DNA of 64,000 bases from a phage: sequence record PZ583739.1. One strand, 5' to 3'. Of the stretch, positions 1,864 through 52,669 are shown piece by piece. The position numbers and the translations under genes were made by a program. Position 1 is the stretch's first letter. The number at the start of each line of letters is the position of its first letter. The notes beneath the pieces were generated by a model. It searched no databases, had not been told where the DNA came from, and saw only the letters and a list, made by a program, of their open reading frames with translations.

Positions 1864-2150
1864 TAGAACCTCGTCAGGAAACCGCGTGATTTAACATTAC
1901 CGCCATTAATATCAGATGAATTAATTTCCCGCGCCGCAATTGGGTCAATATCAATGTCGCGTCTAAGCTTGGTGATTGCCAGAGTATCACGTCCATTAAC
2001 AGTCCTGAATTCAACTGGGCAAACTACATCAACATAGTTCTTAATGGAATCGCGTGTTGGTTCACACCCAGCAGGAACATTAGGGCCTTTTTTAGAGAAA
2101 ACAACTTCACAGAAATTTTTACGTGTATCAAAGTAAGTAGTCATAAACAT
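1863..2150 (-). CDS. hypothetical protein
   Basis: 95-aa ORF; GC hairpin GGGGC-tttc-GCCCC at 2165-2178 just upstream. Confidence 0.4.
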   Translation of the reverse strand: MFMTTYFDTRKNFCEVVFSKKGPNVPAGCEPTRDSIKNYVDVVCPVEFRTVNGRDTLAITKLRRDIDIDPIAAREINSSDINGGNVKSRGFLTRF

Positions 2151-2191
2151 AGTATTTTCCTCAAGGGGCTTTCGCCCCCCCCCATTTAAGA

Positions 2192-2557
2192 TTAGATATC
2201 AAATTCATTAAGAACTACATCAAAGATTGCTTCCAGGTGTTCAGGTTTTGCTTTGTTGCTCAGGATGTGACGAATCCAAGTTTTAACCAGAAGCTTGCGA
2301 TTAACACCATTCCAGCAAGGATGAGTCCCTAAATCACGTTCACGGAAATCATCATCTAAAGCAATTTTAAAAGTTGAACCAGTCATAGTGATTGAAAGAG
2401 TGATACCATTTTCAAATCGCATATAAACGTAGTTAGGAGTCATATACTGTTCAATTTCGCACACTGAACCATTTTTATGTTTCCATAAGCAAATAAATTC
2501 AGAAGAACCTGGGATGCAGTTAGAAACATATTTGCGTTCAAAGTTGATGTAGTTCAT
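2192..2557 (-). CDS. hypothetical protein
   Basis: 121-aa ORF preceded by conserved CTGGAGAATAAAATG initiation region. Confidence 0.5.
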   Translation of the reverse strand: MNYINFERKYVSNCIPGSSEFICLWKHKNGSVCEIEQYMTPNYVYMRFENGITLSITMTGSTFKIALDDDFRERDLGTHPCWNGVNRKLLVKTWIRHILSNKAKPEHLEAIFDVVLNEFDI

Positions 2558-8904: not shown

Positions 8905-8939
8905 GGAGCATTATACTCTGCTCCCATGAGTTTGTACAC
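8905..8939 (-). promoter_or_regulatory. early promoter with stem-loop (PeSL-like)
   Basis: minus strand GTGTACA ... TATAAT; inverted repeat GGAGCA (8905-8910) / TGCTCC (8919-8924) around the -10. Confidence 0.5.
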
Positions 8940-38881: not shown

Positions 38882-38917
38882 GGGGTCATTATACTCTGAC
38901 CCCATGAGTTTGTACAC
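38882..38917 (-). promoter_or_regulatory. early promoter with stem-loop (PeSL-like)
   Basis: minus strand GTGTACAA -17nt- TATAAT; inverted repeat GGGGTCA (38882-38888) / TGACCCC (38897-38903) around the -10. Confidence 0.5.
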
Positions 38918-45857: not shown

Positions 45858-47690
45858 TTATAGCGTCGCATTCATCCAGTCTTTACGCTGCTGGGAATCT
45901 TTACCGAATAGCATTTCGAACAGTTCTTTCCAATTGTCGGGCAATTGAACAACTTCGAATACTGGCTCGAGCAATACGCGTTTGTACTCTGAATCTTCCA
46001 GAGAACCAAGCCCCTTGATATATCGAATGGTATGCTTCGGAAGTTTATCCTTAGCTTCTTCGTAATCAGGAAGAGAATAGAACCATTCTTGTTTATCTTT
46101 GAGCTGTGCAATAATAACAGGAGTTTTCACAAAGCGAATTCGTCCTTCATGGAACAGCTCTGGCCAGTTACTGAAAAACGCCAATAACGATGGATAGATA
46201 CTACCAACACCATCCACATCCGCATCTGTCATGATAGCAATGTTTCGGTAATTCATATTCTCGGCCGGTTGTCCAATCGTTAAACCAGTAATCGCACACA
46301 CATCAAAGGCTTCAGCGTTCTTCATAACTTCAACAGCTTTCAGACCCCATGTGTTTTTAAACTTACCACGTAACGGATAAGCACCTTGCAATTCACGGTC
46401 ACGAACCTTGATAAACGGACCCGTTGCAGAATCTCCTTCGGTCAGGAATAGAGTCGTTTCCAGCTTATCATTACCCCATTCGTTGGCTTTGATATGCTTT
46501 TGTACCTTGGCCTTTGAAGCTTTCTTATTTGCTTTAGTCTCTGCTGCTTTCTCTGCAGCCAATTTACGAGCCAATGCAGCTTCAATGATAGGCGTCAGAA
46601 TAGCTTCTGATTTTAACAACGAACCAGCTAACTTTTTGCCATCAACCTGGATATGTGATTTAATTTCACCGGCAGGTGAAGTCAATCGCTCCTTAGTCTG
46701 GGAATCAAATCGCATGTTCTTCATATTGCGAATAAACATCAACAATGTAATACATTCTTTAACGCGTGCTTTGGTTACTTCAATTTTATACTTGCGTTTA
46801 ATCGCCGGGATTAACACATCACACATTTCATCCATAACACATTCAATATGGTGACCACCATTTTTTGTATGGATTCCGTTAACATAAGTCACATGACGGA
46901 AACCATCGGGTGACCGACCAATTGCAATTGAGCAATTATCTTGTTCCTGAATAATGATTTCATCATCGTATTGCTTGGCATATTTTTTAAAGTGACCTTG
47001 CACTTTTTTACCATTGAACTTGAATTCGATATCCGGATAAATGACTGCAAGAGTCTGGATTTGGTCAAGCATAATTTGGACATATGTTTCGTCAAAACCA
47101 GACGTTTCAAAATTCGAAAAATCCGGAATAAATTTAACTTTAGTTCCTTGCAACTTTGATGGTTTTGATTTCCATGAAATATTATCAAGTCCATTTGAAC
47201 AATTAACGGTTAATTCATTTTTCCCATCTGATGTAGTGCCTGTGAACAATATTGAAAAAATATTGGTAAGACTGGACCCAACTCCGTTCATCCCAGTGGT
47301 AACACGATTTGCATCATCACTAAAGTTTCCACCCGAACGAACCTTGGTCCATGCAGCGACCGGCCCAGGAATTTCTTCGCCTTCTGGGGTTACAACAATC
47401 GCCTGTGGAATGCCTCGACCATTATCTTCAACGGTCACTTCGTTTGTTTTGATATCAATATTCAATGAAATTTTGTTTGCAAATTTAAAATTGGTGCGAA
47501 TAGCTTCATCAATAGAGTTATTTGCAATTTCTTCGATTAATTTAATTAAACCTGGAACGTATTGAACCTTTTTATATTCACCAAACAGAAAAATTTCTTT
47601 GTCTTCATTGGTAACACTACCGATGTACATTGATGGGCGAGCTTTTACGTGAGCTACATCAGAAAGGATTTGAATTTCATTCTTAATCAT
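45858..47690 (-). CDS. 39: DNA topoisomerase II large subunit (fused gene 39+60 equivalent, GyrB-like)
   Basis: 610-aa continuous ORF; ATPase motifs ...EDNGRGIP..., TOPRIM ...TLFLTEGDSA..., C-terminus continues through the region that is gene 60 in T4. Confidence 0.9.
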   Translation of the reverse strand: MIKNEIQILSDVAHVKARPSMYIGSVTNEDKEIFLFGEYKKVQYVPGLIKLIEEIANNSIDEAIRTNFKFANKISLNIDIKTNEVTVEDNGRGIPQAIVVTPEGEEIPGPVAAWTKVRSGGNFSDDANRVTTGMNGVGSSLTNIFSILFTGTTSDGKNELTVNCSNGLDNISWKSKPSKLQGTKVKFIPDFSNFETSGFDETYVQIMLDQIQTLAVIYPDIEFKFNGKKVQGHFKKYAKQYDDEIIIQEQDNCSIAIGRSPDGFRHVTYVNGIHTKNGGHHIECVMDEMCDVLIPAIKRKYKIEVTKARVKECITLLMFIRNMKNMRFDSQTKERLTSPAGEIKSHIQVDGKKLAGSLLKSEAILTPIIEAALARKLAAEKAAETKANKKASKAKVQKHIKANEWGNDKLETTLFLTEGDSATGPFIKVRDRELQGAYPLRGKFKNTWGLKAVEVMKNAEAFDVCAITGLTIGQPAENMNYRNIAIMTDADVDGVGSIYPSLLAFFSNWPELFHEGRIRFVKTPVIIAQLKDKQEWFYSLPDYEEAKDKLPKHTIRYIKGLGSLEDSEYKRVLLEPVFEVVQLPDNWKELFEMLFGKDSQQRKDWMNATL

Positions 47691-48483
47691 TTTTGACCTC
47701 TAAATTTTTAGTATAACCTAAACATTTCCAACTGGACCATTTTACATCATCGGAATTGCAGCGTTTTCGTAATGTAGGATAACTAATACCAAGAACTTCG
47801 GCGGCTTCTTTTCGGGTTGTGAATATGACCCCATTTATAGAGTACGTTTTAGCCTCGGGATTTTTATCACCAGAGAATAATTTTGATAATTTATCTTTGT
47901 GTTCAAGAGAAAGATGTTTGCCAAAGAAATGATGATTTTCGCCTGCTTTACGCAGGGAGACATTATAACCAAAATCATCGGGGTATGGCTTTCTTTTAAC
48001 ACCAGTTCCATATATTCTATTATATTCGGTTTTATCTAACAGTTTATTCCGTTTTTTAACGGCTTCGCCTTTAAGTAAATTAATTTCCGCTTTTCTTGGA
48101 TGATTGGACATTGTGTCACCACCAAAATCCGCCAACGTTATATTATAACCGTTTTTGATAGAATTTAATTCAGTTATCCAGAAACTTTCTCTTTTCAAGA
48201 AATATTTTTTATTATAAACTTCTATATTTTCTATTAGTTTGCATACAAATGATTCTTTACCGTATTTGTCATATGCAAACTGTAAATGGCTGTTTATGCC
48301 AACACCTTTGGATAAATTCCGAAAATGCGTGGCAATTCTACGATGAAAATCATTTGAACTTCCTATATAATATTTTTGAGATATTAAATTATAAATTATA
48401 TAAATCCCACTATTTCCACTCGATGGTGGAATATAATCAGGAAATTTATTTTTTATTATCCCGAATACTTCATTAATCATCAT
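47683..48483 (-). CDS. free-standing GIY-YIG homing endonuclease (mobile element)
   Basis: 266 aa; N-terminal GIYIIYNLISQKYYIGSS...R...N; basic linker with repeated motifs and C-terminal helix-turn-helix-like ...TTRKEAAEVLGISYPTLRKR; stop overlaps gene 39 start by 8 nt. Confidence 0.8.
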   Translation of the reverse strand: MMINEVFGIIKNKFPDYIPPSSGNSGIYIIYNLISQKYYIGSSNDFHRRIATHFRNLSKGVGINSHLQFAYDKYGKESFVCKLIENIEVYNKKYFLKRESFWITELNSIKNGYNITLADFGGDTMSNHPRKAEINLLKGEAVKKRNKLLDKTEYNRIYGTGVKRKPYPDDFGYNVSLRKAGENHHFFGKHLSLEHKDKLSKLFSGDKNPEAKTYSINGVIFTTRKEAAEVLGISYPTLRKRCNSDDVKWSSWKCLGYTKNLEVKND

Positions 48484-48548: not shown

Positions 48549-48947
48549 TTATTTGAATCGAAGCTGCTCTAACATTTTAATAGCTTGTAGACGGCCGGCT
48601 TCAGTTTTAACCGTAATAATAACATCGCCGCCAGTAACAACGATATCCTCTTTTGATTCCTGTTCGGTTATTTCAGAATCACATTCCGGGACTTCTTCAA
48701 AATATTTAAATTCATCACCAAAAATAAGACCGGTTCCATTACGACTATGGAAAGAAAATCCAGTTCCATCGATAGTACTAAATTCCGTAACAACATTTGC
48801 TTCCATCTTAGTGACTGAAAACTCTTTGGTAGTAACCAAATCAATGATAGAGGTTCCCTGTTGGTTCAAAATGCTACCAGGCATACCAACATGTTTAAGG
48901 AAGCCATCTAAATCTTTAATGTGATAACTCTTTCCAATTTTAAACAT
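48549..48947 (-). CDS. hypothetical protein
   Basis: 132-aa ORF. Confidence 0.5.
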   Translation of the reverse strand: MFKIGKSYHIKDLDGFLKHVGMPGSILNQQGTSIIDLVTTKEFSVTKMEANVVTEFSTIDGTGFSFHSRNGTGLIFGDEFKYFEEVPECDSEITEQESKEDIVVTGGDVIITVKTEAGRLQAIKMLEQLRFK

Positions 48948-48954
48948 AATATCC

Positions 48955-49215
48955 TCATTCGAATCGGATGGTTGAATTCTTAAACAGCAATCCAGAACAA
49001 ACAGTTCCTTTAACTTTCTTACCAGTTGGCCCTACGGCCGTAAAGCCTGTGTGTTGGAAATCATCTTCAGAGCAACCCAACCAGTTATAACCGGTGATTT
49101 GGATTTGTTCATAGCCGTTTGCATCTAATACACGAATGGCATTATCTGCATCAGTACAACTAGCCAATGAAACCGCCAGTACCAGTGCTGCAATAGAACG
49201 ATTAATGTATTTCAT
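48955..49215 (-). CDS. small lipoprotein
   Basis: 86 aa; signal peptide with lipobox LASC; several Cys in mature part. Confidence 0.5.
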   Translation of the reverse strand: MKYINRSIAALVLAVSLASCTDADNAIRVLDANGYEQIQITGYNWLGCSEDDFQHTGFTAVGPTGKKVKGTVCSGLLFKNSTIRFE

Positions 49216-49221
49216 ATATCC

Positions 49222-49395
49222 TCACTTCAAAAGGTCGTAAAAACCGCCATTAACATGTTTAGGAGCCGAGACTAACCGAACAGCCAGCCGATGGCAATCA
49301 GGACAAACATCATTATCTCTTTCAGAGATTTTCTTGATTTTTTCGTATTCTTTCGCGCAGTCATTGGATTGACATTTGTAATCATAAAGTGGCAT
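49222..49395 (-). CDS. small zinc-ribbon protein (57 aa), not in ORF track
   Basis: MPLYDYKCQSNDCAKEYE...CPDCHRL: paired CxxC motifs; its TGA stop sits in the lipoprotein gene SD. Confidence 0.4.
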   Translation of the reverse strand: MPLYDYKCQSNDCAKEYEKIKKISERDNDVCPDCHRLAVRLVSAPKHVNGGFYDLLK

Positions 49396-49396
49396 G

Positions 49397-49771
49397 TTAT
49401 TCCTTAAAGTGTGCTTTCAACATCTGGTAAACGGTCCAGGCTTCAGAGTTATTAGAAATGGTGATTTTAGTCAAAGGGAATTCGCTTGGTTCAAATGCTT
49501 CATCAGCGTCTTCGCATTCATCTTCAGTATCGTCATCTTTTTCTTCTTCAAAGAAACGACGCTCATCTTCCTTTATGAATATTCTCTCTATTCCACCGGT
49601 CGAAAATTCTATCCGATATACATCACCACCTTCAATTCCGACTGGTCTAAATCCTTCACCATTGATTATAGCATCAGCTATATTATCATTATCAGAGCAT
49701 AACAAACGAAATCTGCTTTCAGCAACATTATCTTTAAAATAATACCATTTATCAGTTTCAAATTTCAACAT
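49397..49771 (-). CDS. hypothetical protein with strongly acidic segment
   Basis: 124 aa from ATG 49771 (SD AAGGAGA); contains EDERRFFEEEKDDDTEDECEDADEAFEPSE. Confidence 0.45.
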   Translation of the reverse strand: MLKFETDKWYYFKDNVAESRFRLLCSDNDNIADAIINGEGFRPVGIEGGDVYRIEFSTGGIERIFIKEDERRFFEEEKDDDTEDECEDADEAFEPSEFPLTKITISNNSEAWTVYQMLKAHFKE

Positions 49772-49988
49772 GATAAGTCTCCTTCCAAAAATCTGTGCCA
49801 TCTTCTGATTCTTCGCGGAACAGCGCATAGCTAGGTAGTTCTGCATCTTTATCTGCGTACACATAAATGATGTCAGTGGTACAAAGAAATTCATTGATGT
49901 TTTTCTTCACAATCACTTTATCACTTTCAGCAGTGTCCCAGAACTCTTCAGCAGTCAGGGAAGTGGTCACACAATTTTCATTAAACAT
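49758..49988 (-). CDS. hypothetical acidic protein
   Basis: 76-aa ORF. Confidence 0.45.
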   Translation of the reverse strand: MFNENCVTTSLTAEEFWDTAESDKVIVKKNINEFLCTTDIIYVYADKDAELPSYALFREESEDGTDFWKETYHVEI

Positions 49989-50036
49989 AATATTCTCCTC
50001 ATTGATAGGGTAATTTTACCCTATCATTTTTATAAT

Positions 50037-50597
50037 TTAGGCACGATGAATATCAGCATACTCAACGATAAAGCTTTCAGGAACCACCTTAAAGGTTCCA
50101 AGGAACACGATGTTATAGAGCTTAACGCCTTCTTCAACCCACTGGTCTGTGATGTAACCAGACATGCTAGTGGTTTCATAAGTACCAAAAGGTTCGTCAA
50201 CATATTCAAACGGTTTAGGTGAAACAAAAAAGACACCTTTGCCCAATTTCCATTTAAAATCAACCCCAACATGAGACTGGTCAATGGTTTCAACGTCTTG
50301 AGCAATTACGCCACGGATATCATTGCTTTCGCACACATATCCATCATGGGATTCAACTTCTTCAACCACAGGGAGGTTGGCGGCAGTAATAGCAGTTGAT
50401 TCCAGGAATTTAGCACGAACATAAGCGAATTGAGTTTCAGTCTGACCATTTTTGGGAATGATACGCACCTTTACTTCATTATCAGGATGGTCAACAAAAA
50501 TATCAGCACGAATACTGACAACCTCAACAAAACGTCCAGCGGCTCTTGAACGAGATTTTTTGGATACGCGAACGATTTCGCCAGCTTCAACTTTCAT
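50037..50597 (-). CDS. hypothetical protein, paralog of the 50677-51429 product
   Basis: 186 aa; C-terminal GYITDQWVEEGVKLYNIVFLGTFKVVPESFIVE matches GWVTDQWIEDGVELLNVVHAGEFTVVPRSMVVE in the neighbour. Confidence 0.5.
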   Translation of the reverse strand: MKVEAGEIVRVSKKSRSRAAGRFVEVVSIRADIFVDHPDNEVKVRIIPKNGQTETQFAYVRAKFLESTAITAANLPVVEEVESHDGYVCESNDIRGVIAQDVETIDQSHVGVDFKWKLGKGVFFVSPKPFEYVDEPFGTYETTSMSGYITDQWVEEGVKLYNIVFLGTFKVVPESFIVEYADIHRA

Positions 50598-50633
50598 AAT
50601 TTTCTCTCTTGGTTAATAAGTTTATTCTCCAGT

Positions 50634-50669
50634 GGGGTCATTATACTCTGACCCCAAGAGTTTGTACAC
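50634..50669 (-). promoter_or_regulatory. early promoter with stem-loop (PeSL-like)
   Basis: near-identical copy of the 38882-38917 element: GGGGTCA / TGACCCC around TATAAT, GTGTACAA upstream. Confidence 0.5.
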
Positions 50670-50676
50670 TTTAAAT

Positions 50677-51429
50677 TTAATTAAAAATTTCAACAACCAT
50701 GGAACGTGGTACAACAGTAAATTCACCAGCATGGACAACGTTCAGGAGTTCAACACCATCTTCAATCCACTGGTCTGTTACCCAACCACAAATGGAACTA
50801 TTAAATGGGCGTTTGATTTGAACTGGTTTGCACAACAAGTCAATAGGGTCACCCAGCTCGCTAACTTCTTCCAGCAGTACAGATTCACGCGGATAAAGGA
50901 TAGCTTCAAGATTGTCACCTGATTCATTGACTGCAGTAAATTCAAAGATGCTTTGGTGATTGTGGTACTTAACTGTTTTAACGGTAAATGGAGCAAATCC
51001 AAAAATACCTTTCAGTACCCGCCAACCAGCATTCAATGCATTAGTATTATCAAAATCACCATATCCAACAAGTTGATAGGTTTTGTCAACTTTGATAGGA
51101 GTTTCTTCAACTTCTTTGAAGAGTTCAATCTCAGCTTCATAAACCGTAATTTTTTCTACTTCATTTGTATCAAGGCGACGTGCATGTAGAATATATGCTT
51201 TATCAAACCAGTTACTTTTTACAAAAGTTTCAACAATAAATTCACCTTCACCTAAAGCATCAGTCAGAGTATTATACCCAGAAACCATAGCTGCGTTTTG
51301 AATAATAGGTTCAATCAGTTGATAAGTTTTGTTAATTTCAATAGTCATATTTTGTTTCTCAAGTTTTAATGGTTTAATTGGGCGAACATACATACTTACA
51401 ACATCAAAGTCAATAAATTCTGGTTTCAT
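50677..51429 (-). CDS. hypothetical protein, paralog of the 50037-50597 product
   Basis: 250-aa ORF sharing its C-terminal module with the neighbour. Confidence 0.5.
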   Translation of the reverse strand: MKPEFIDFDVVSMYVRPIKPLKLEKQNMTIEINKTYQLIEPIIQNAAMVSGYNTLTDALGEGEFIVETFVKSNWFDKAYILHARRLDTNEVEKITVYEAEIELFKEVEETPIKVDKTYQLVGYGDFDNTNALNAGWRVLKGIFGFAPFTVKTVKYHNHQSIFEFTAVNESGDNLEAILYPRESVLLEEVSELGDPIDLLCKPVQIKRPFNSSICGWVTDQWIEDGVELLNVVHAGEFTVVPRSMVVEIFN

Positions 51430-51686
51430 TATGCAACCTTATTGAACATCGCCAGTTGATTAGGTTGTACAACCATAATTTCACGACGACCTTTTGCGTT
51501 TGACACGTTCAGGTAGATGCCTTTGTTCATGTCTGTTTCTTTATCATATACCGCAATTTTATTGACAGTAAAGATTTTACCACGAATATTTGTAAATGCA
51601 CATTCAAACGCTTTGGTCAGACCTGCTTCAGCAGCTTGAAGAGCAGACATTTCATATTGTTGGCCAATTTCAAAAGAAGTAATCAT
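51429..51686 (-). CDS. hypothetical protein
   Basis: start reset to ATG 51686 with SD GAGGATAACAAA; track start lies upstream of the promoter -10. Confidence 0.4.
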   Translation of the reverse strand: MITSFEIGQQYEMSALQAAEAGLTKAFECAFTNIRGKIFTVNKIAVYDKETDMNKGIYLNVSNAKGRREIMVVQPNQLAMFNKVA

Positions 51687-51714
51687 TTTGTTATCCTCAT
51701 CAGTAGTTGATGAG

Positions 51715-51747
51715 ATGATTATGTCTCTTTCCATTGGCCTTGTACAC
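51715..51747 (-). promoter_or_regulatory. early promoter
   Basis: minus strand AAAAAGTAGTGTACAA (51741-51747 rc) ... CATAAT then leader CATCAACTACTGATGAGGA. Confidence 0.45.
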
Positions 51748-51753
51748 TACTTT

Positions 51754-52437
51754 TTATCGTTTTTTCGGTAAAGATAACGGGTCTGCATCTTCTTCGGAAG
51801 GAACTTCATCTAAACCAAGAGCATAGCGCTGGGCATACTTCAACATCAAAATATCTTTCGCGCAGTCATGTACCGAATCGTGCGCCACAAATCCATCTAA
51901 AGTCCCTTTCGGTAATGGGGTTTCACACATCTTACGGACGAGTGACAGGGCTTCGATGGCTGTCCTGATATCTCGCTGGTTCCAGAATACAACCGGCTCC
52001 AGGTCATAGGTATTCAATTCACGCTCAGGAATCCCCTCATTGCGCTGTAGGTCGCGGATAAGGTCAACAAATAACGGAAAGTCAAAAGACATTCCACGAC
52101 ACCACATAAGGCTTTCGTATTTGTTAATTCCATTACCATTCAGATAATCAATTGCCTGTTGGATACCGGTCAGAGTATCAACATCTTGCGCAGAAGGAGC
52201 CAAGTTAACACGGGCTTCTGCTGATTGCTTTTTCCACCAACCCATGGTTGTTGTATCGAACAACCGCTTACCTTTTTGATATTCAAGACTAAACTTAATG
52301 CGTTTGCCGCGATTAACCAGGGTTTCGAATGATTCCACAATAGCAGGGTCAGATTCGAATGTAATCAGGGCCAAGTCAATAACGGCTCCCTTCGAGCCGT
52401 TTCCCAGAGTTTCAAAGTCAATAATAGCATCAATCAT
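51754..52437 (-). CDS. dexA: exonuclease A
   Basis: 227 aa; MIDAIIDFETLGNGSKGAVIDLALITF... and ...CRGMSFDFPLFVDLIRDLQRNEG...GFVAHDSVHDCAKDILMLKYA match T4 DexA as remembered. Confidence 0.9.
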   Translation of the reverse strand: MIDAIIDFETLGNGSKGAVIDLALITFESDPAIVESFETLVNRGKRIKFSLEYQKGKRLFDTTTMGWWKKQSAEARVNLAPSAQDVDTLTGIQQAIDYLNGNGINKYESLMWCRGMSFDFPLFVDLIRDLQRNEGIPERELNTYDLEPVVFWNQRDIRTAIEALSLVRKMCETPLPKGTLDGFVAHDSVHDCAKDILMLKYAQRYALGLDEVPSEEDADPLSLPKKR

Positions 52438-52669
52438 CGCACATCTCTTTTAATTTCTGAATTTCACCAGCAACATAGTCGGAGATAAAAATTCCTGGCT
52501 CTTCATTGTTAAAATATTCAATCGCGGCCATACGTTTCTGAATAAGACTCAGTTCCAGTAAAACGTAATTACCCTGTTGGACGATAGTCGGATTATCTTC
52601 GAAAAATTCAACCTCGTCCTGAATACCATAGATAAGAGTATCTAAATCTTCTTTATGTACTTTATACAT
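52430..52669 (-). CDS. hypothetical protein (dexA.1 position)
   Basis: 79-aa ORF between dda and dexA. Confidence 0.45.
   Translation of the reverse strand: MYKVHKEDLDTLIYGIQDEVEFFEDNPTIVQQGNYVLLELSLIQKRMAAIEYFNNEEPGIFISDYVAGEIQKLKEMCDD

What the first reader, a model, noticed from the sequence alone, without database searches (positions are those of the whole stretch)
50037..51429. Adjacent paralogous genes sharing a C-terminal module
The 186-aa and 250-aa products share a conserved C-terminal segment (G[YW][IV]TDQW[VI]E[ED]GV[KE]L...F.VVP.S..VE) but have divergent N-terminal halves, indicating duplication followed by N-terminal diversification. Both are unassigned and sit where T4 has motB-region genes.
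Basis: seen in the sequence. Interest (0 to 1): 0.35.

Follow-up and report, generated by a model that had tools for sequence, protein, structure and literature searches.

The report
motB and motB.1 share C-terminal domain

Summary
The 186-aa and 250-aa products share a C-terminal segment (BLASTP 24/52 identical, E 2e-12; family profile comparison 98.3% probability, E 1.7e-14).

Neither gene is unassigned. The window is a Gaprivervirus, a T4-like phage 97% identical to vB_EcoM_RZ. The 186-aa protein is MotB (Pfam PF17613, E 2.6e-57). The 250-aa protein is MotB.1 (phrog_2333, E 3.6e-78), already labelled "MotB-like" or "MotB domain-containing" in public records.

Patterson-West et al. 2021 (PMC7827196) described the shared C-terminal domain, the different N-terminal domains and a probable duplication. 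Kim et al. 2025 (PMC12152347) described the LSm-like N-terminal domain of MotB.1.

Added here:
- This MotB.1 carries two tandem LSm-like N-domains of different lineages.
- The N-terminal differences come from domain swapping and accretion, not divergence. Hybrids with a MotB-type N-domain and a MotB.1-type C-domain exist.
- The shared module is a small five-strand barrel with SH3/Tudor/KOW-like topology, confined to T4-like phages.
- The module is acidic, whereas the MotB N-domain is basic. The module is therefore more likely a protein-interaction domain than the DNA-binding surface (inference).

Novelty: already known. Interest is low.

The parts
50037..50597 (-). motB gene (186 aa plus stop)
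   Evidence: Pfam PF17613 motB, E 2.6e-57, 193.6 bits. phrog_1671 'MotB-like transcriptional regulator', E 3.5e-69, full length. 58% identical to T4 MotB and 99% to vB_EcoM_RZ MotB. Lies between cef and motB.1, as in T4.
50394..50597 (-). MotB N-terminal domain (aa 1-68): basic five-strand KOW/SH3-like barrel
   Evidence: AF2 strands 8-11, 23-29, 41-46, 56-61, 65-67, with a 3-10 turn before the last strand. pI 9.86 here; median 10.1 over 48 relatives. KOW assignment published for T4 residues 6-45 (PMC7827196).
50265..50393 (-). MotB linker (aa 69-111): acidic, predicted disordered, about 23 aa longer than in T4 and SP18
   Evidence: pLDDT below 50 for residues 69-107. pI 4.05. Alignment gap against T4 and SP18. 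Long-linker forms of 183-191 aa also occur in JS98-type phages.
50040..50264 (-). MotB C-terminal domain (aa 112-186): five-strand barrel with a long beta1-beta2 hairpin. The part shared with MotB.1 is aa 118-182 (nt 50052-50246).
   Evidence: AF2 pLDDT about 90; strands 121-134, 138-155, 158-165, 168-173, 177-180. hhalign match to the MotB.1 C-domain. Joint alignment.
50634..50669 (-). Early-promoter-like element with a stem-loop around the -10 box (PeSL-like), between motB.1 and motB
   Evidence: TGTACA-17-TATAAT, 10 of 12 matches. The same 36-nt element recurs at 38882-38917 and 8905-8936. It is conserved upstream of T4 motB with compensatory stem changes. The class is described in PMC2839356 and PMC4122927.
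50677..51429 (-). motB.1 gene (250 aa plus stop)
   Evidence: phrog_2333, E 3.6e-78. Pfam motB over aa 210-246 only. Orthologues are annotated motB.1 in SP18 and 'MotB domain-containing' or 'MotB-like' in UPEC07 and vB_EcoM_RZ. Foldseek match to T4 MotB.1 (P39415), E 2.3e-7.
51349..51429 (-). MotB.1 leader (aa 1-27): predicted disordered, carries the conserved short motif FIDFDVVSMYVRPIKPL
   Evidence: pLDDT below 50 for residues 1-27. D7, D9, Y14, P20 and L21 are nearly invariant in the family. The motif recurs between the N- and C-domains in other family members.
51100..51348 (-). MotB.1 N-domain 1 (aa 28-110): LSm-like/SH3-like barrel with an inserted helix
   Evidence: AF2 elements E35-38, H46-59, E63-71, E78-85, E91-97, H98-103, E104-106. 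Aligns with the single N-domain of the 141-183-aa MotB.1 proteins. Weak hit to phrog_3710, which the GoF-like neighbours also hit.
50851..51099 (-). MotB.1 N-domain 2 (aa 111-193): a second LSm-like barrel, present as an insertion relative to most MotB.1 proteins
   Evidence: Same secondary-structure pattern as N-domain 1. 29% identical to N-domain 1, E 1e-4. 49% identical to the sole N-domain of P0101, E 2e-24. Seen as an insertion in the family alignment.
50680..50850 (-). MotB.1 C-terminal domain (aa 194-250): the shared module, a five-strand small barrel
   Evidence: AF2 strands 202-205, 213-223, 226-233, 236-241, 245-247, with a 3-10 turn before the last strand. hhalign match to the MotB C-domain. 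Invariant D, W, E, G, L, N and V across both families. pI 4.5.

Best explanation
These are the early genes motB and motB.1 of a T4-like (Gaprivervirus) phage.

Shown:
- Both proteins end in the same small domain of about 55-75 aa. Its core motif is G-[WYF]-[IV]-[TS]-D-Q-W-[VI]-E-x-G-x-x-L-x-N-[IV]-V. It is predicted as a five-strand beta-barrel with SH3/Tudor/KOW-like topology.
- In MotB this domain follows a basic KOW-like barrel and an acidic disordered linker.
- In this phage's MotB.1 it follows a disordered leader carrying a conserved short motif and two tandem LSm-like barrels of different lineages.
- The pair arose by an old duplication of the C-terminal module. That module has since been combined with different N-terminal modules by recombination, in a hyperplastic region rich in repeated promoter/stem-loop elements.

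From the literature, for T4: MotB is an abundant early protein that binds DNA tightly and non-specifically. It co-purifies with H-NS and StpA, changes the H-NS footprint, relieves H-NS repression and doubles burst size.

Inferred here: non-specific DNA binding resides mainly in the basic N-terminal barrel. The acidic shared C-terminal barrel is a common protein-interaction module, either for self- or hetero-association or for binding one shared partner. It would deliver two different effector ends to the same place: a DNA-binding KOW-like domain in MotB, and LSm-like, possibly RNA- or protein-binding, domains in MotB.1.

The 0.85 confidence covers the identification and architecture. The inferred role of the C-terminal module stands at about 0.3.
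For: - Identity: Pfam motB E 2.6e-57 and PHROG hits. Window 97% identical to vB_EcoM_RZ, with the same gene order and public annotation. T4 synteny.
- Shared module: BLASTP E 2e-12. hhalign 98.3%, E 1.7e-14. Joint alignment with invariant D, W, E, G, L, N, V.
- Fold: AF2 models give five strands plus a 3-10 turn before the last strand in both C-domains, with pLDDT about 90 in MotB. Foldseek finds strings of KOW, Tudor, Agenet and Spindlin barrels for MotB.1, E 7e-5 to 1e-3.
- Modularity: N-domain 1 against 2 is 29% identical, while N-domain 2 against P0101 is 49%. There are three or more N-terminal arrangements. Hybrids with a KOW-type N-domain and a MotB.1-type C-domain score 88-106 bits on the MotB.1 C-domain model against 47-52 bits on the MotB one (P0247, P0253, P0254). 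In some phages the hybrid is the only family gene at the locus.
- Charge: MotB N-domain median pI 10.1 (net +6). MotB C-domain median 4.85 (net -3). MotB.1 C-domain 4.1-4.95, and whole MotB.1 4.6-5.2.
- Published function and the shared C-terminal domain: PMC6070864, PMC7827196, PMC12152347.
Against: - The role proposed for the C-terminal module rests only on charge, conservation and fold class. No interaction data exist.
- The published in-silico assignment calls the MotB C-domain a cold-shock-type OB-fold that could bind DNA. T4's own C-domain is near neutral (pI 7.96).
- Foldseek matches for the MotB model are not significant (E 0.015 or higher), and I had no coordinates to superpose the two C-domains.
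- T4 motB.1 knock-outs have no phenotype, and MotB.1 did not affect the RNA reporter that was tested.
- AF3 did not support homomultimers of MotB.1, though the authors' analyses assume the 13.8-kDa (119-aa) product that ends inside the shared module; which construct was modelled was not checked.
Confidence: 0.85

Rival explanations
1. Both proteins are DNA-binding nucleoid-associated proteins, and the shared C-terminal module is the DNA-binding domain (a cold-shock-type OB-fold), as predicted in the literature for T4 MotB.
For: HHpred-based assignment of T4 MotB residues 69-149 to SCOPe b.40.4.5, with eIF5A as the closest hit (PMC7827196). MotB binds DNA tightly. The T4 MotB C-domain is roughly neutral (pI 7.96).
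Against: - The module is acidic in nearly all members: MotB C-domain median pI 4.85, MotB.1 C-domain 4.1-4.95, whole MotB.1 4.6-5.2.
- The invariant residues include D and E.
- The predicted topology has the 3-10 turn between strands 4 and 5, typical of SH3-like barrels. It lacks the helix between strands 3 and 4 typical of OB-folds.
- Foldseek returns KOW, Tudor and Agenet proteins, not OB-folds.
- No Pfam OB or CSD hit.
Confidence: 0.15
2. Simple tandem gene duplication, after which the N-terminal halves diverged beyond recognition.
For: The genes are adjacent and co-oriented, and the C-terminal ends are clearly homologous. All N-domains are predicted to be small beta-barrels of the SH3-like class, so a very remote common origin cannot be excluded.
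Against: - No profile-level similarity between the N-terminal halves.
- Different domain number and secondary-structure pattern.
- N-domain 2 is much closer to another phage's N-domain than to N-domain 1.
- Hybrids and alternative N-terminal additions exist.
- GoF and Frd.2, elsewhere in T4 genomes, carry the LSm-like domain without this C-domain (PMC12152347).
Confidence: 0.1
3. The similarity is a chance or compositional match between unrelated ORFs.
For: The shared stretch is short, about 50 aa.
Against: BLASTP E 2e-12. hhalign E 1.7e-14. Pfam motB hit above its gathering score. The motif is conserved in hundreds of phage records.
Confidence: 0.01

Closest known systems
T4 MotB (gene motB, Pfam PF17613; Patterson-West 2018 and 2021, Son 2021)
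   Same: The 186-aa protein is an orthologue. It matches the Pfam model over its full length and is 58% identical to T4 MotB. It has the same KOW-like N-domain motif (RVS..SRS.AAG), the same C-domain and the same position next to cef.
   Different: It has a roughly 23-aa longer, strongly acidic linker. This makes the whole protein acidic (pI 5.07 against 9.23 in T4), and its C-domain is also more acidic. About half of the MotB representatives sampled are acidic overall.
[quoted passage not shown]
   Same: The 250-aa protein has the MotB.1-type C-domain (DP.DLLC...GWVTDQWIEDGVELLNVVH...VVPRS). It has an LSm-like N-domain and sits immediately upstream of motB.
   Different: It has two tandem LSm-like N-domains plus a conserved leader, 250 aa in all. 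Most relatives are 141-183 aa, and the T4 reference annotation gives 119 aa. The second N-domain belongs to another N-domain lineage. The T4 reference protein stops inside the shared motif because of one extra G that a resequenced T4 lacks.
Tandem SH3-fold reader and adaptor proteins (Spt5/NusG KOW repeats, 53BP1 tandem Tudor, Agenet, Spindlin)
   Same: The models predict a string of small five-strand barrels, and Foldseek retrieves these proteins for MotB.1 at E 7e-5 to 1e-3.
   Different: There is no sequence similarity, TM-scores are low (0.16-0.25 on the query), and the domain order and linkers are not comparable. This is a fold-class resemblance only. Matches for MotB are not significant.
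PeSL promoter/stem-loop cassettes of T4-type phages (Arbiol 2010, Comeau 2014)
   Same: A repeated early-promoter-like element with a stem-loop lies between the two genes, with two more copies in the window. It sits in a hyperplastic region where modules are shuffled.
   Different: Here the stem encloses the -10 box instead of preceding the promoter. Its role in shuffling this locus was not shown.

Membership tests
MotB (Pfam PF17613), for the 186-aa protein | Full-length match to the family model above the curated threshold | tested here: met
   193.6 bits against a cut-off of 25, E 2.6e-57. phrog_1671 matched over 1-186 against profile 1-166.
MotB (Pfam PF17613), for the 186-aa protein | N-terminal KOW-like barrel followed by the conserved C-terminal domain | tested here: met
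   AF2 gives two five-strand domains separated by a disordered linker. Alignment with T4 and SP18 MotB.
MotB (Pfam PF17613), for the 186-aa protein | Conserved position: downstream of motB.1, upstream of cef, between dexA and gene 39 | tested here: met
MotB (Pfam PF17613), for the 186-aa protein | Tight non-specific DNA binding, alteration of H-NS binding, toxicity in E. coli | not testable with these tools
   Known only for T4 MotB (PMC6070864, PMC7827196). This orthologue is acidic overall (pI 5.07), so its DNA binding should be checked.
MotB.1 group (phrog_2333; Patterson-West 2021 categories 2-4), for the 250-aa protein | MotB.1-type C-terminal core motif | tested here: met
   phrog_2333 E 3.6e-78. 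Invariant DP.DLL...GWVTDQW..DG.ELLNVVH in the family alignment. The MotB.1 C-domain HMM scores 130 bits against 50 bits for the MotB C-domain HMM.
MotB.1 group (phrog_2333; Patterson-West 2021 categories 2-4), for the 250-aa protein | N-terminal LSm-like (SH3-topology) barrel as described for T4 MotB.1, GoF and Frd.2 | tested here: met
   AF2 gives two copies of a strand-helix-strand-strand-strand-(3-10)-strand unit. Foldseek match to T4 MotB.1 (P39415), E 2.3e-7. Direct single-sequence profile comparisons with this window's GoF-like neighbours were not significant.
OB-fold / cold-shock DNA-binding domain (published assignment of the shared C-domain) | Five-strand barrel with OB topology (helix between strands 3 and 4) and similarity to OB/CSD families | tested here: inconclusive
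   No Pfam OB or CSD hit and no PDB sequence hit with a C-domain profile. The predicted secondary structure has a 3-10 turn between strands 4 and 5 and no helix between strands 3 and 4. Foldseek top hits are KOW, Tudor and Agenet. No coordinates were available for a domain-level fold comparison.
KOW/Tudor/SH3-like small beta-barrels (fold class) | Five bent antiparallel strands with a 3-10 turn before strand 5, and structural matches to members | tested here: met
   Secondary structure. Foldseek E 7e-5 to 1e-3 for MotB.1. Matches for MotB are only E 0.015 or higher, so this is a fold-class statement, not family membership.
Anti-phage defence or counter-defence families (PADLOC), NCBIfam | Any model hit | tested here: not met
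   No hits at E up to 0.1.

The most novel reading that the evidence does not exclude
The shared acidic C-terminal barrel is not a DNA-binding OB-fold. It is a common docking or oligomerisation module through which MotB (basic, DNA-binding KOW-like end) and MotB.1 (LSm-like, possibly RNA-binding ends) act on one shared partner or on each other, for example H-NS/StpA-coated DNA. If so, motB.1 would belong to the same anti-silencing, nucleoid-remodelling system. Its lack of phenotype in T4 could partly reflect work with a product truncated inside the module. The conserved disordered motif (I/V)D.D(V/I)..MY..P..P would be a second, portable docking peptide.
Probability: 0.2. Interest if true: 0.45.

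Novelty: already known. Interest (0 to 1): 0.15.

Why it matters
As stated, the finding re-discovers a published relationship (MotB and MotB.1 share a C-terminal domain) in a phage whose close relatives are already annotated that way, so it changes little.

The added details could help groups working on T4 host takeover:
- The module is a portable, phage-restricted, acidic small barrel joined to at least three kinds of N-terminal domain. This points to a shared interaction function and argues against it being the DNA-binding surface.
- The Gaprivervirus MotB.1, with two LSm-like domains and a complete C-domain, together with full-length T4 MotB.1 (143 aa), are better subjects for experiments than the 119-aa product annotated in the T4 reference.

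Tried and rejected
- Sequence searches of both proteins, and of a C-domain profile, against PDB chains found nothing meaningful.
- PADLOC and NCBIfam gave no hits.
- Single-sequence-to-profile comparisons of the neighbouring 101-aa ORF, GoF and the 132-aa GoF-like ORF with the MotB.1 family were not significant (probability below 4%). BLASTP of GoF against the 132-aa ORF gave E 0.12. I therefore do not claim from my own data that these neighbours share the LSm-like domain. Only PHROG cross-hits and the literature suggest it.
- An Rfam scan of 49000-52500 found nothing credible.
- The long multi-repeat proteins found with the C-domain profile (P0259, P0261, P0263-P0265, matching only profile positions of about 4-50 several times) look like tail-fibre-type or low-complexity repeats (e.g. 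SGYATEQWV). I set them aside as not homologous.
- I considered recent gene conversion between the two C-domains and rejected it: only 73% DNA identity over 60 nt.
- I considered that the KOW-N-domain/MotB.1-C-domain hybrids arose by deletion between the two repeats. The gene order (motB.1 upstream of motB) would give the opposite chimera, so I rejected this.
- Son et al. 2021 (NAR) could not be read. What I say about it comes from citing papers.
Full report
**What is there**

The window is a T4-like phage genome. The stretch 49700-52500 is 97% identical to Escherichia phage vB_EcoM_RZ (genus Gaprivervirus) and 90-96% identical to SP18, VR7, VR20, VR26, UPEC01/07 and others. On the minus strand the gene order is:
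- gene 39 (topoisomerase large subunit)
- a GIY-YIG endonuclease
- a 132-aa GoF-like ORF
- 39.1 and 39.2
- goF and cef
- the 186-aa ORF
- the 250-aa ORF
- a 101-aa ORF
- dexA, a 79-aa ORF, dda and srd

This matches T4. The two ORFs of the finding lie exactly where stated: 50037-50597 and 50677-51429.

**Checking the observation**

- BLASTP of one protein against the other gives one significant alignment. It covers MotB 128-179 and MotB.1 201-247, with 24/52 identical and E 2e-12.
- I collected relatives of each protein and aligned 48 and 33 of them (A3 and A4). Comparing the profiles gave 98.3% probability and E 1.7e-14, covering MotB 118-182 and MotB.1 199-250. Nothing matched in the N-terminal halves.
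- The Pfam motB model matches residues 210-246 of the 250-aa protein above its gathering score.
- At DNA level only 60 nt at 73% identity remain.

**What the genes are**

- The 186-aa protein is MotB: Pfam PF17613 E 2.6e-57, phrog_1671 E 3.5e-69, and 58% identity to T4 MotB.
- The 250-aa protein is MotB.1: phrog_2333 E 3.6e-78. It is called motB.1 in SP18, 'transcription regulator MotB domain-containing protein' in UPEC07, and 'MotB-like transcriptional regulator' in the RefSeq record of vB_EcoM_RZ.

So 'both are unassigned' is wrong.

The relationship is also in the literature:
- Patterson-West et al. 2021 (PMC7827196) report that MotB and MotB.1 share a conserved C-terminal domain and differ in the N-terminal domain. 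They suggest one gene arose by duplication of the other, and sort 102 homologues into MotB and three MotB.1-like categories.
- Kim et al. 2025 (PMC12152347) report that the N-domains of MotB.1, GoF and Frd.2 are LSm-like/SH3-topology barrels. T4 motB.1 mutants have no growth phenotype.
- For T4 MotB, published work shows several things. It binds DNA tightly and non-specifically and co-purifies with H-NS and StpA. It alters H-NS footprints, de-represses H-NS-regulated genes, is toxic in E. coli and gives a two-fold burst advantage.

**Anatomy**

AlphaFold2 on the family alignments gave usable models (mean pLDDT 74.5 and 72.5).

MotB:
- Residues 1-67 form a five-strand barrel with a 3-10 turn before the last strand.
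- Residues 69-107 are disordered.
- Residues 108-186 form a confident (pLDDT about 90) five-strand domain with a very long beta1-beta2 hairpin (121-155) and a 3-10 turn before the last strand.

MotB.1:
- Residues 1-27 are disordered.
- Residues 28-107 and 113-190 are two copies of a strand-helix-strand-strand-strand-(3-10)-strand unit.
- Residues 196-250 form a five-strand barrel with the same strand order as the MotB C-domain but a short first hairpin.

A joint alignment of 64 distinct C-domains shows that the whole C-domain is homologous. MotB carries an extra segment of about 20 residues in the first hairpin. D, W, E, G, L, N and V are invariant in the core ...DQW.E.G..L.N.V....

Foldseek against the PDB retrieves chains of small SH3-fold barrels for MotB.1 at E 7e-5 to 1e-3, but with low TM-scores: Spt5 KOW repeats, 53BP1 tandem Tudor, Agenet and Spindlin. 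The same kinds of protein appear for MotB, not significantly (E 0.015 or higher). Against BFVD the matches are MotB.1 relatives, including T4 P39415.

I therefore describe the shared module as an SH3/Tudor/KOW-like small barrel. The published OB-fold assignment is neither confirmed nor excluded, because I could not compare cropped coordinates.

**How the N-terminal differences arose**

- The family alignment shows that most MotB.1 proteins (141-183 aa) have one N-domain.
- The Gaprivervirus proteins have a second N-domain inserted before the C-domain.
- Another group (about 248 aa) instead has an extra domain at the extreme N-terminus.
- N-domain 1 and N-domain 2 of the window protein are 29% identical (E 1e-4). 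N-domain 2 is 49% identical (E 2e-24) to the only N-domain of P0101, a 165-aa MotB.1 from another T4-like contig with the same dexA-motB.1-motB-cef order.

A profile of the C-domain, searched against 1.84 billion representative proteins, found only 33 hits at E 0.001 or better. Apart from the five long repeat proteins discussed under 'What led nowhere', these are short proteins resembling the family, and the two checked lie on T4-like contigs. Scoring those hits with separate domain HMMs shows proteins that combine a MotB-type KOW-like N-domain with a MotB.1-type C-domain. P0247, P0253 and P0254 score 88-106 bits on the MotB.1 C-domain model against 47-52 bits on the MotB one. In two contigs such a hybrid is the only family gene between dexA (or motB.2) and cef.

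The pattern is therefore a conserved C-terminal module combined with different N-terminal modules. It is not one gene pair whose N-termini drifted apart. A single KOW-plus-C-domain gene may be the older state (inference).

**Mechanism**

Charge analysis separates the domains:

| Domain | pI | Net charge |
|---|---|---|
| MotB N-domain (48 relatives) | median 10.1 | +6 |
| MotB C-domain (48 relatives) | median 4.85 | -3 |
| MotB.1 C-domain (33 relatives) | 4.1-4.95 | -5 to -2 |
| Whole MotB.1 | 4.6-5.2 | not computed |
| This window's MotB | 5.07 (T4: 9.23) | -8 |

The window's MotB is acidic because of an acidic linker about 23 aa longer than in T4.

An acidic, highly conserved barrel with invariant D and E is a poor candidate for tight non-specific DNA binding. 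The basic KOW-like N-domain is a good one. My best reading is that MotB binds DNA through its N-domain. The shared C-domain would be a common protein-interaction module, for self- or hetero-association or for one shared partner. MotB.1 would couple that module to LSm-like domains. This step is inference, and I put it at about 0.3. The identification itself is secure.

**Other things seen**

1. The T4 reference sequence has ATTGGAAGATGG where this window and a resequenced T4 clone (OL964745) have ATTGAAGATGG.
   - The annotated 119-aa T4 MotB.1 therefore stops inside the shared motif.
   - The rest of the module is intact in the next frame.
   - T4_7t1, T4_ev151 and RB7 encode 143-145-aa full-length proteins.
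   - Neither paper mentions a frameshift.
2. The 80-nt gap between the genes holds an early-promoter-like element whose -10 box sits in the loop of a 7-bp stem.
   - The same element occurs at 38882-38917 and 8905-8936 in the window and upstream of T4 motB.
   - The stem shows compensatory changes between copies.
   - It resembles the published PeSL cassettes linked to modular shuffling.
3. The disordered MotB.1 leader carries a conserved short motif. The motif reappears between the N- and C-domains of the hybrid proteins.

**What led nowhere**

- PDB sequence searches, PADLOC, NCBIfam and Rfam gave nothing.
- My own profile comparisons did not link the neighbouring GoF-like ORFs or the 101-aa ORF to the MotB.1 N-domains.
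- Multi-repeat tail-fibre-like or low-complexity hits to the C-domain profile were set aside as not homologous.

**Verdict**

The finding is already known and already annotated. The new details are increments within a known family: two tandem N-domains in this genus, hybrid architectures, a consistently acidic shared module, and a T4 reference frameshift.

Noticed in passing
L004 (T4 NC_000866) 2143-2340 minus strand; compare window 50740-50780: The T4 reference motB.1 (119 aa) ends ...GGWVTDQWIGRWR* because of one extra G (ATTGGAAGATGG against ATTGAAGATGG). The next frame continues EDGVELLNVVHAGEYSVVPRSAVVAILN, which is the rest of the shared module. The resequenced T4 clone OL964745, T4_ev151 and RB7 encode full-length proteins of 143-145 aa. 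This is probably a sequencing error or a stock-specific mutation in the reference. Published MotB.1 work cites the 13.8-kDa product.
   Followed up: partly
window 50634-50669 (-), 38882-38917 (-), 8905-8936 (-): A repeated 32-36-nt early-promoter-like element (TGTACA-17-TATAAT) whose -10 box lies in the loop of a 7-bp stem. The stem arms differ between copies and from T4 by compensatory changes (GGGGTCA/TGACCCC, GGGACCA/TGGTCCC, GGGAGCA/TGCTCC). It resembles the published PeSL promoter/stem-loop cassettes of T4-type phages.
   Followed up: partly
window 51349-51429 (-), MotB.1 aa 1-27: The predicted disordered leader carries a conserved motif (FIDFDVVSMYVRPIKPL; consensus [IV]D.D[VI]..MY..P..P). 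The same motif occurs between the N- and C-domains in hybrid family members (P0250-P0254, P0257, P0258) and in P0251. It may be a portable docking peptide.
   Followed up: partly
loci L009 730-1203 and L010 4001-4381: In some T4-like contigs, a single gene with a KOW-like N-domain and a MotB.1-type C-domain is the only motB-family gene between dexA (or motB.2) and cef. This may be the ancestral one-gene state of the locus.
   Followed up: partly
window 50265-50393 (-), MotB aa 69-111: The MotB linker is about 23 aa longer than in T4 and SP18. It is strongly acidic (pI 4.05) and predicted disordered, making this MotB acidic overall (pI 5.07 against 9.23 in T4). Of 48 MotB representatives, 25 are acidic overall.
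   Followed up: partly
window 47683-48483 (-): A 266-aa ORF directly downstream of gene 39 has a GIY-YIG catalytic domain, a NUMOD3 motif and an I-TevI-type DNA-binding domain, so it is a Seg-like homing endonuclease. The closest relative, vB_EcoM_RZ, has a differently sized ORF (708 nt) annotated 'endonuclease VII' at this position.
   Followed up: no
window 51429-51734 (-): A 101-aa ORF (phrog_17795, no Pfam family) occupies the place of T4 motB.2 but is unrelated to it. Its stop overlaps the motB.1 start (TAATG), which suggests translational coupling.
   Followed up: partly
window 48549-48947 (-) and 49397-49771 (-): The 132-aa ORF and GoF both match phrog_622 (E 2e-17 and 2.9e-29), so they may be a second pair of remote paralogues in this region. 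Direct BLASTP is not significant (E 0.12). The ORF listing extends goF to 165 aa, but homologues start at Met42 (124 aa).
   Followed up: partly
protein P0260 (43 aa, from the representative search): This is a fusion of the first 15 or so residues of MotB.2 (MKIYRVESSFSIL.Y) to the last 28 residues of the MotB.1 C-domain. It is a deletion product and further evidence of rearrangement at this locus.
   Followed up: no
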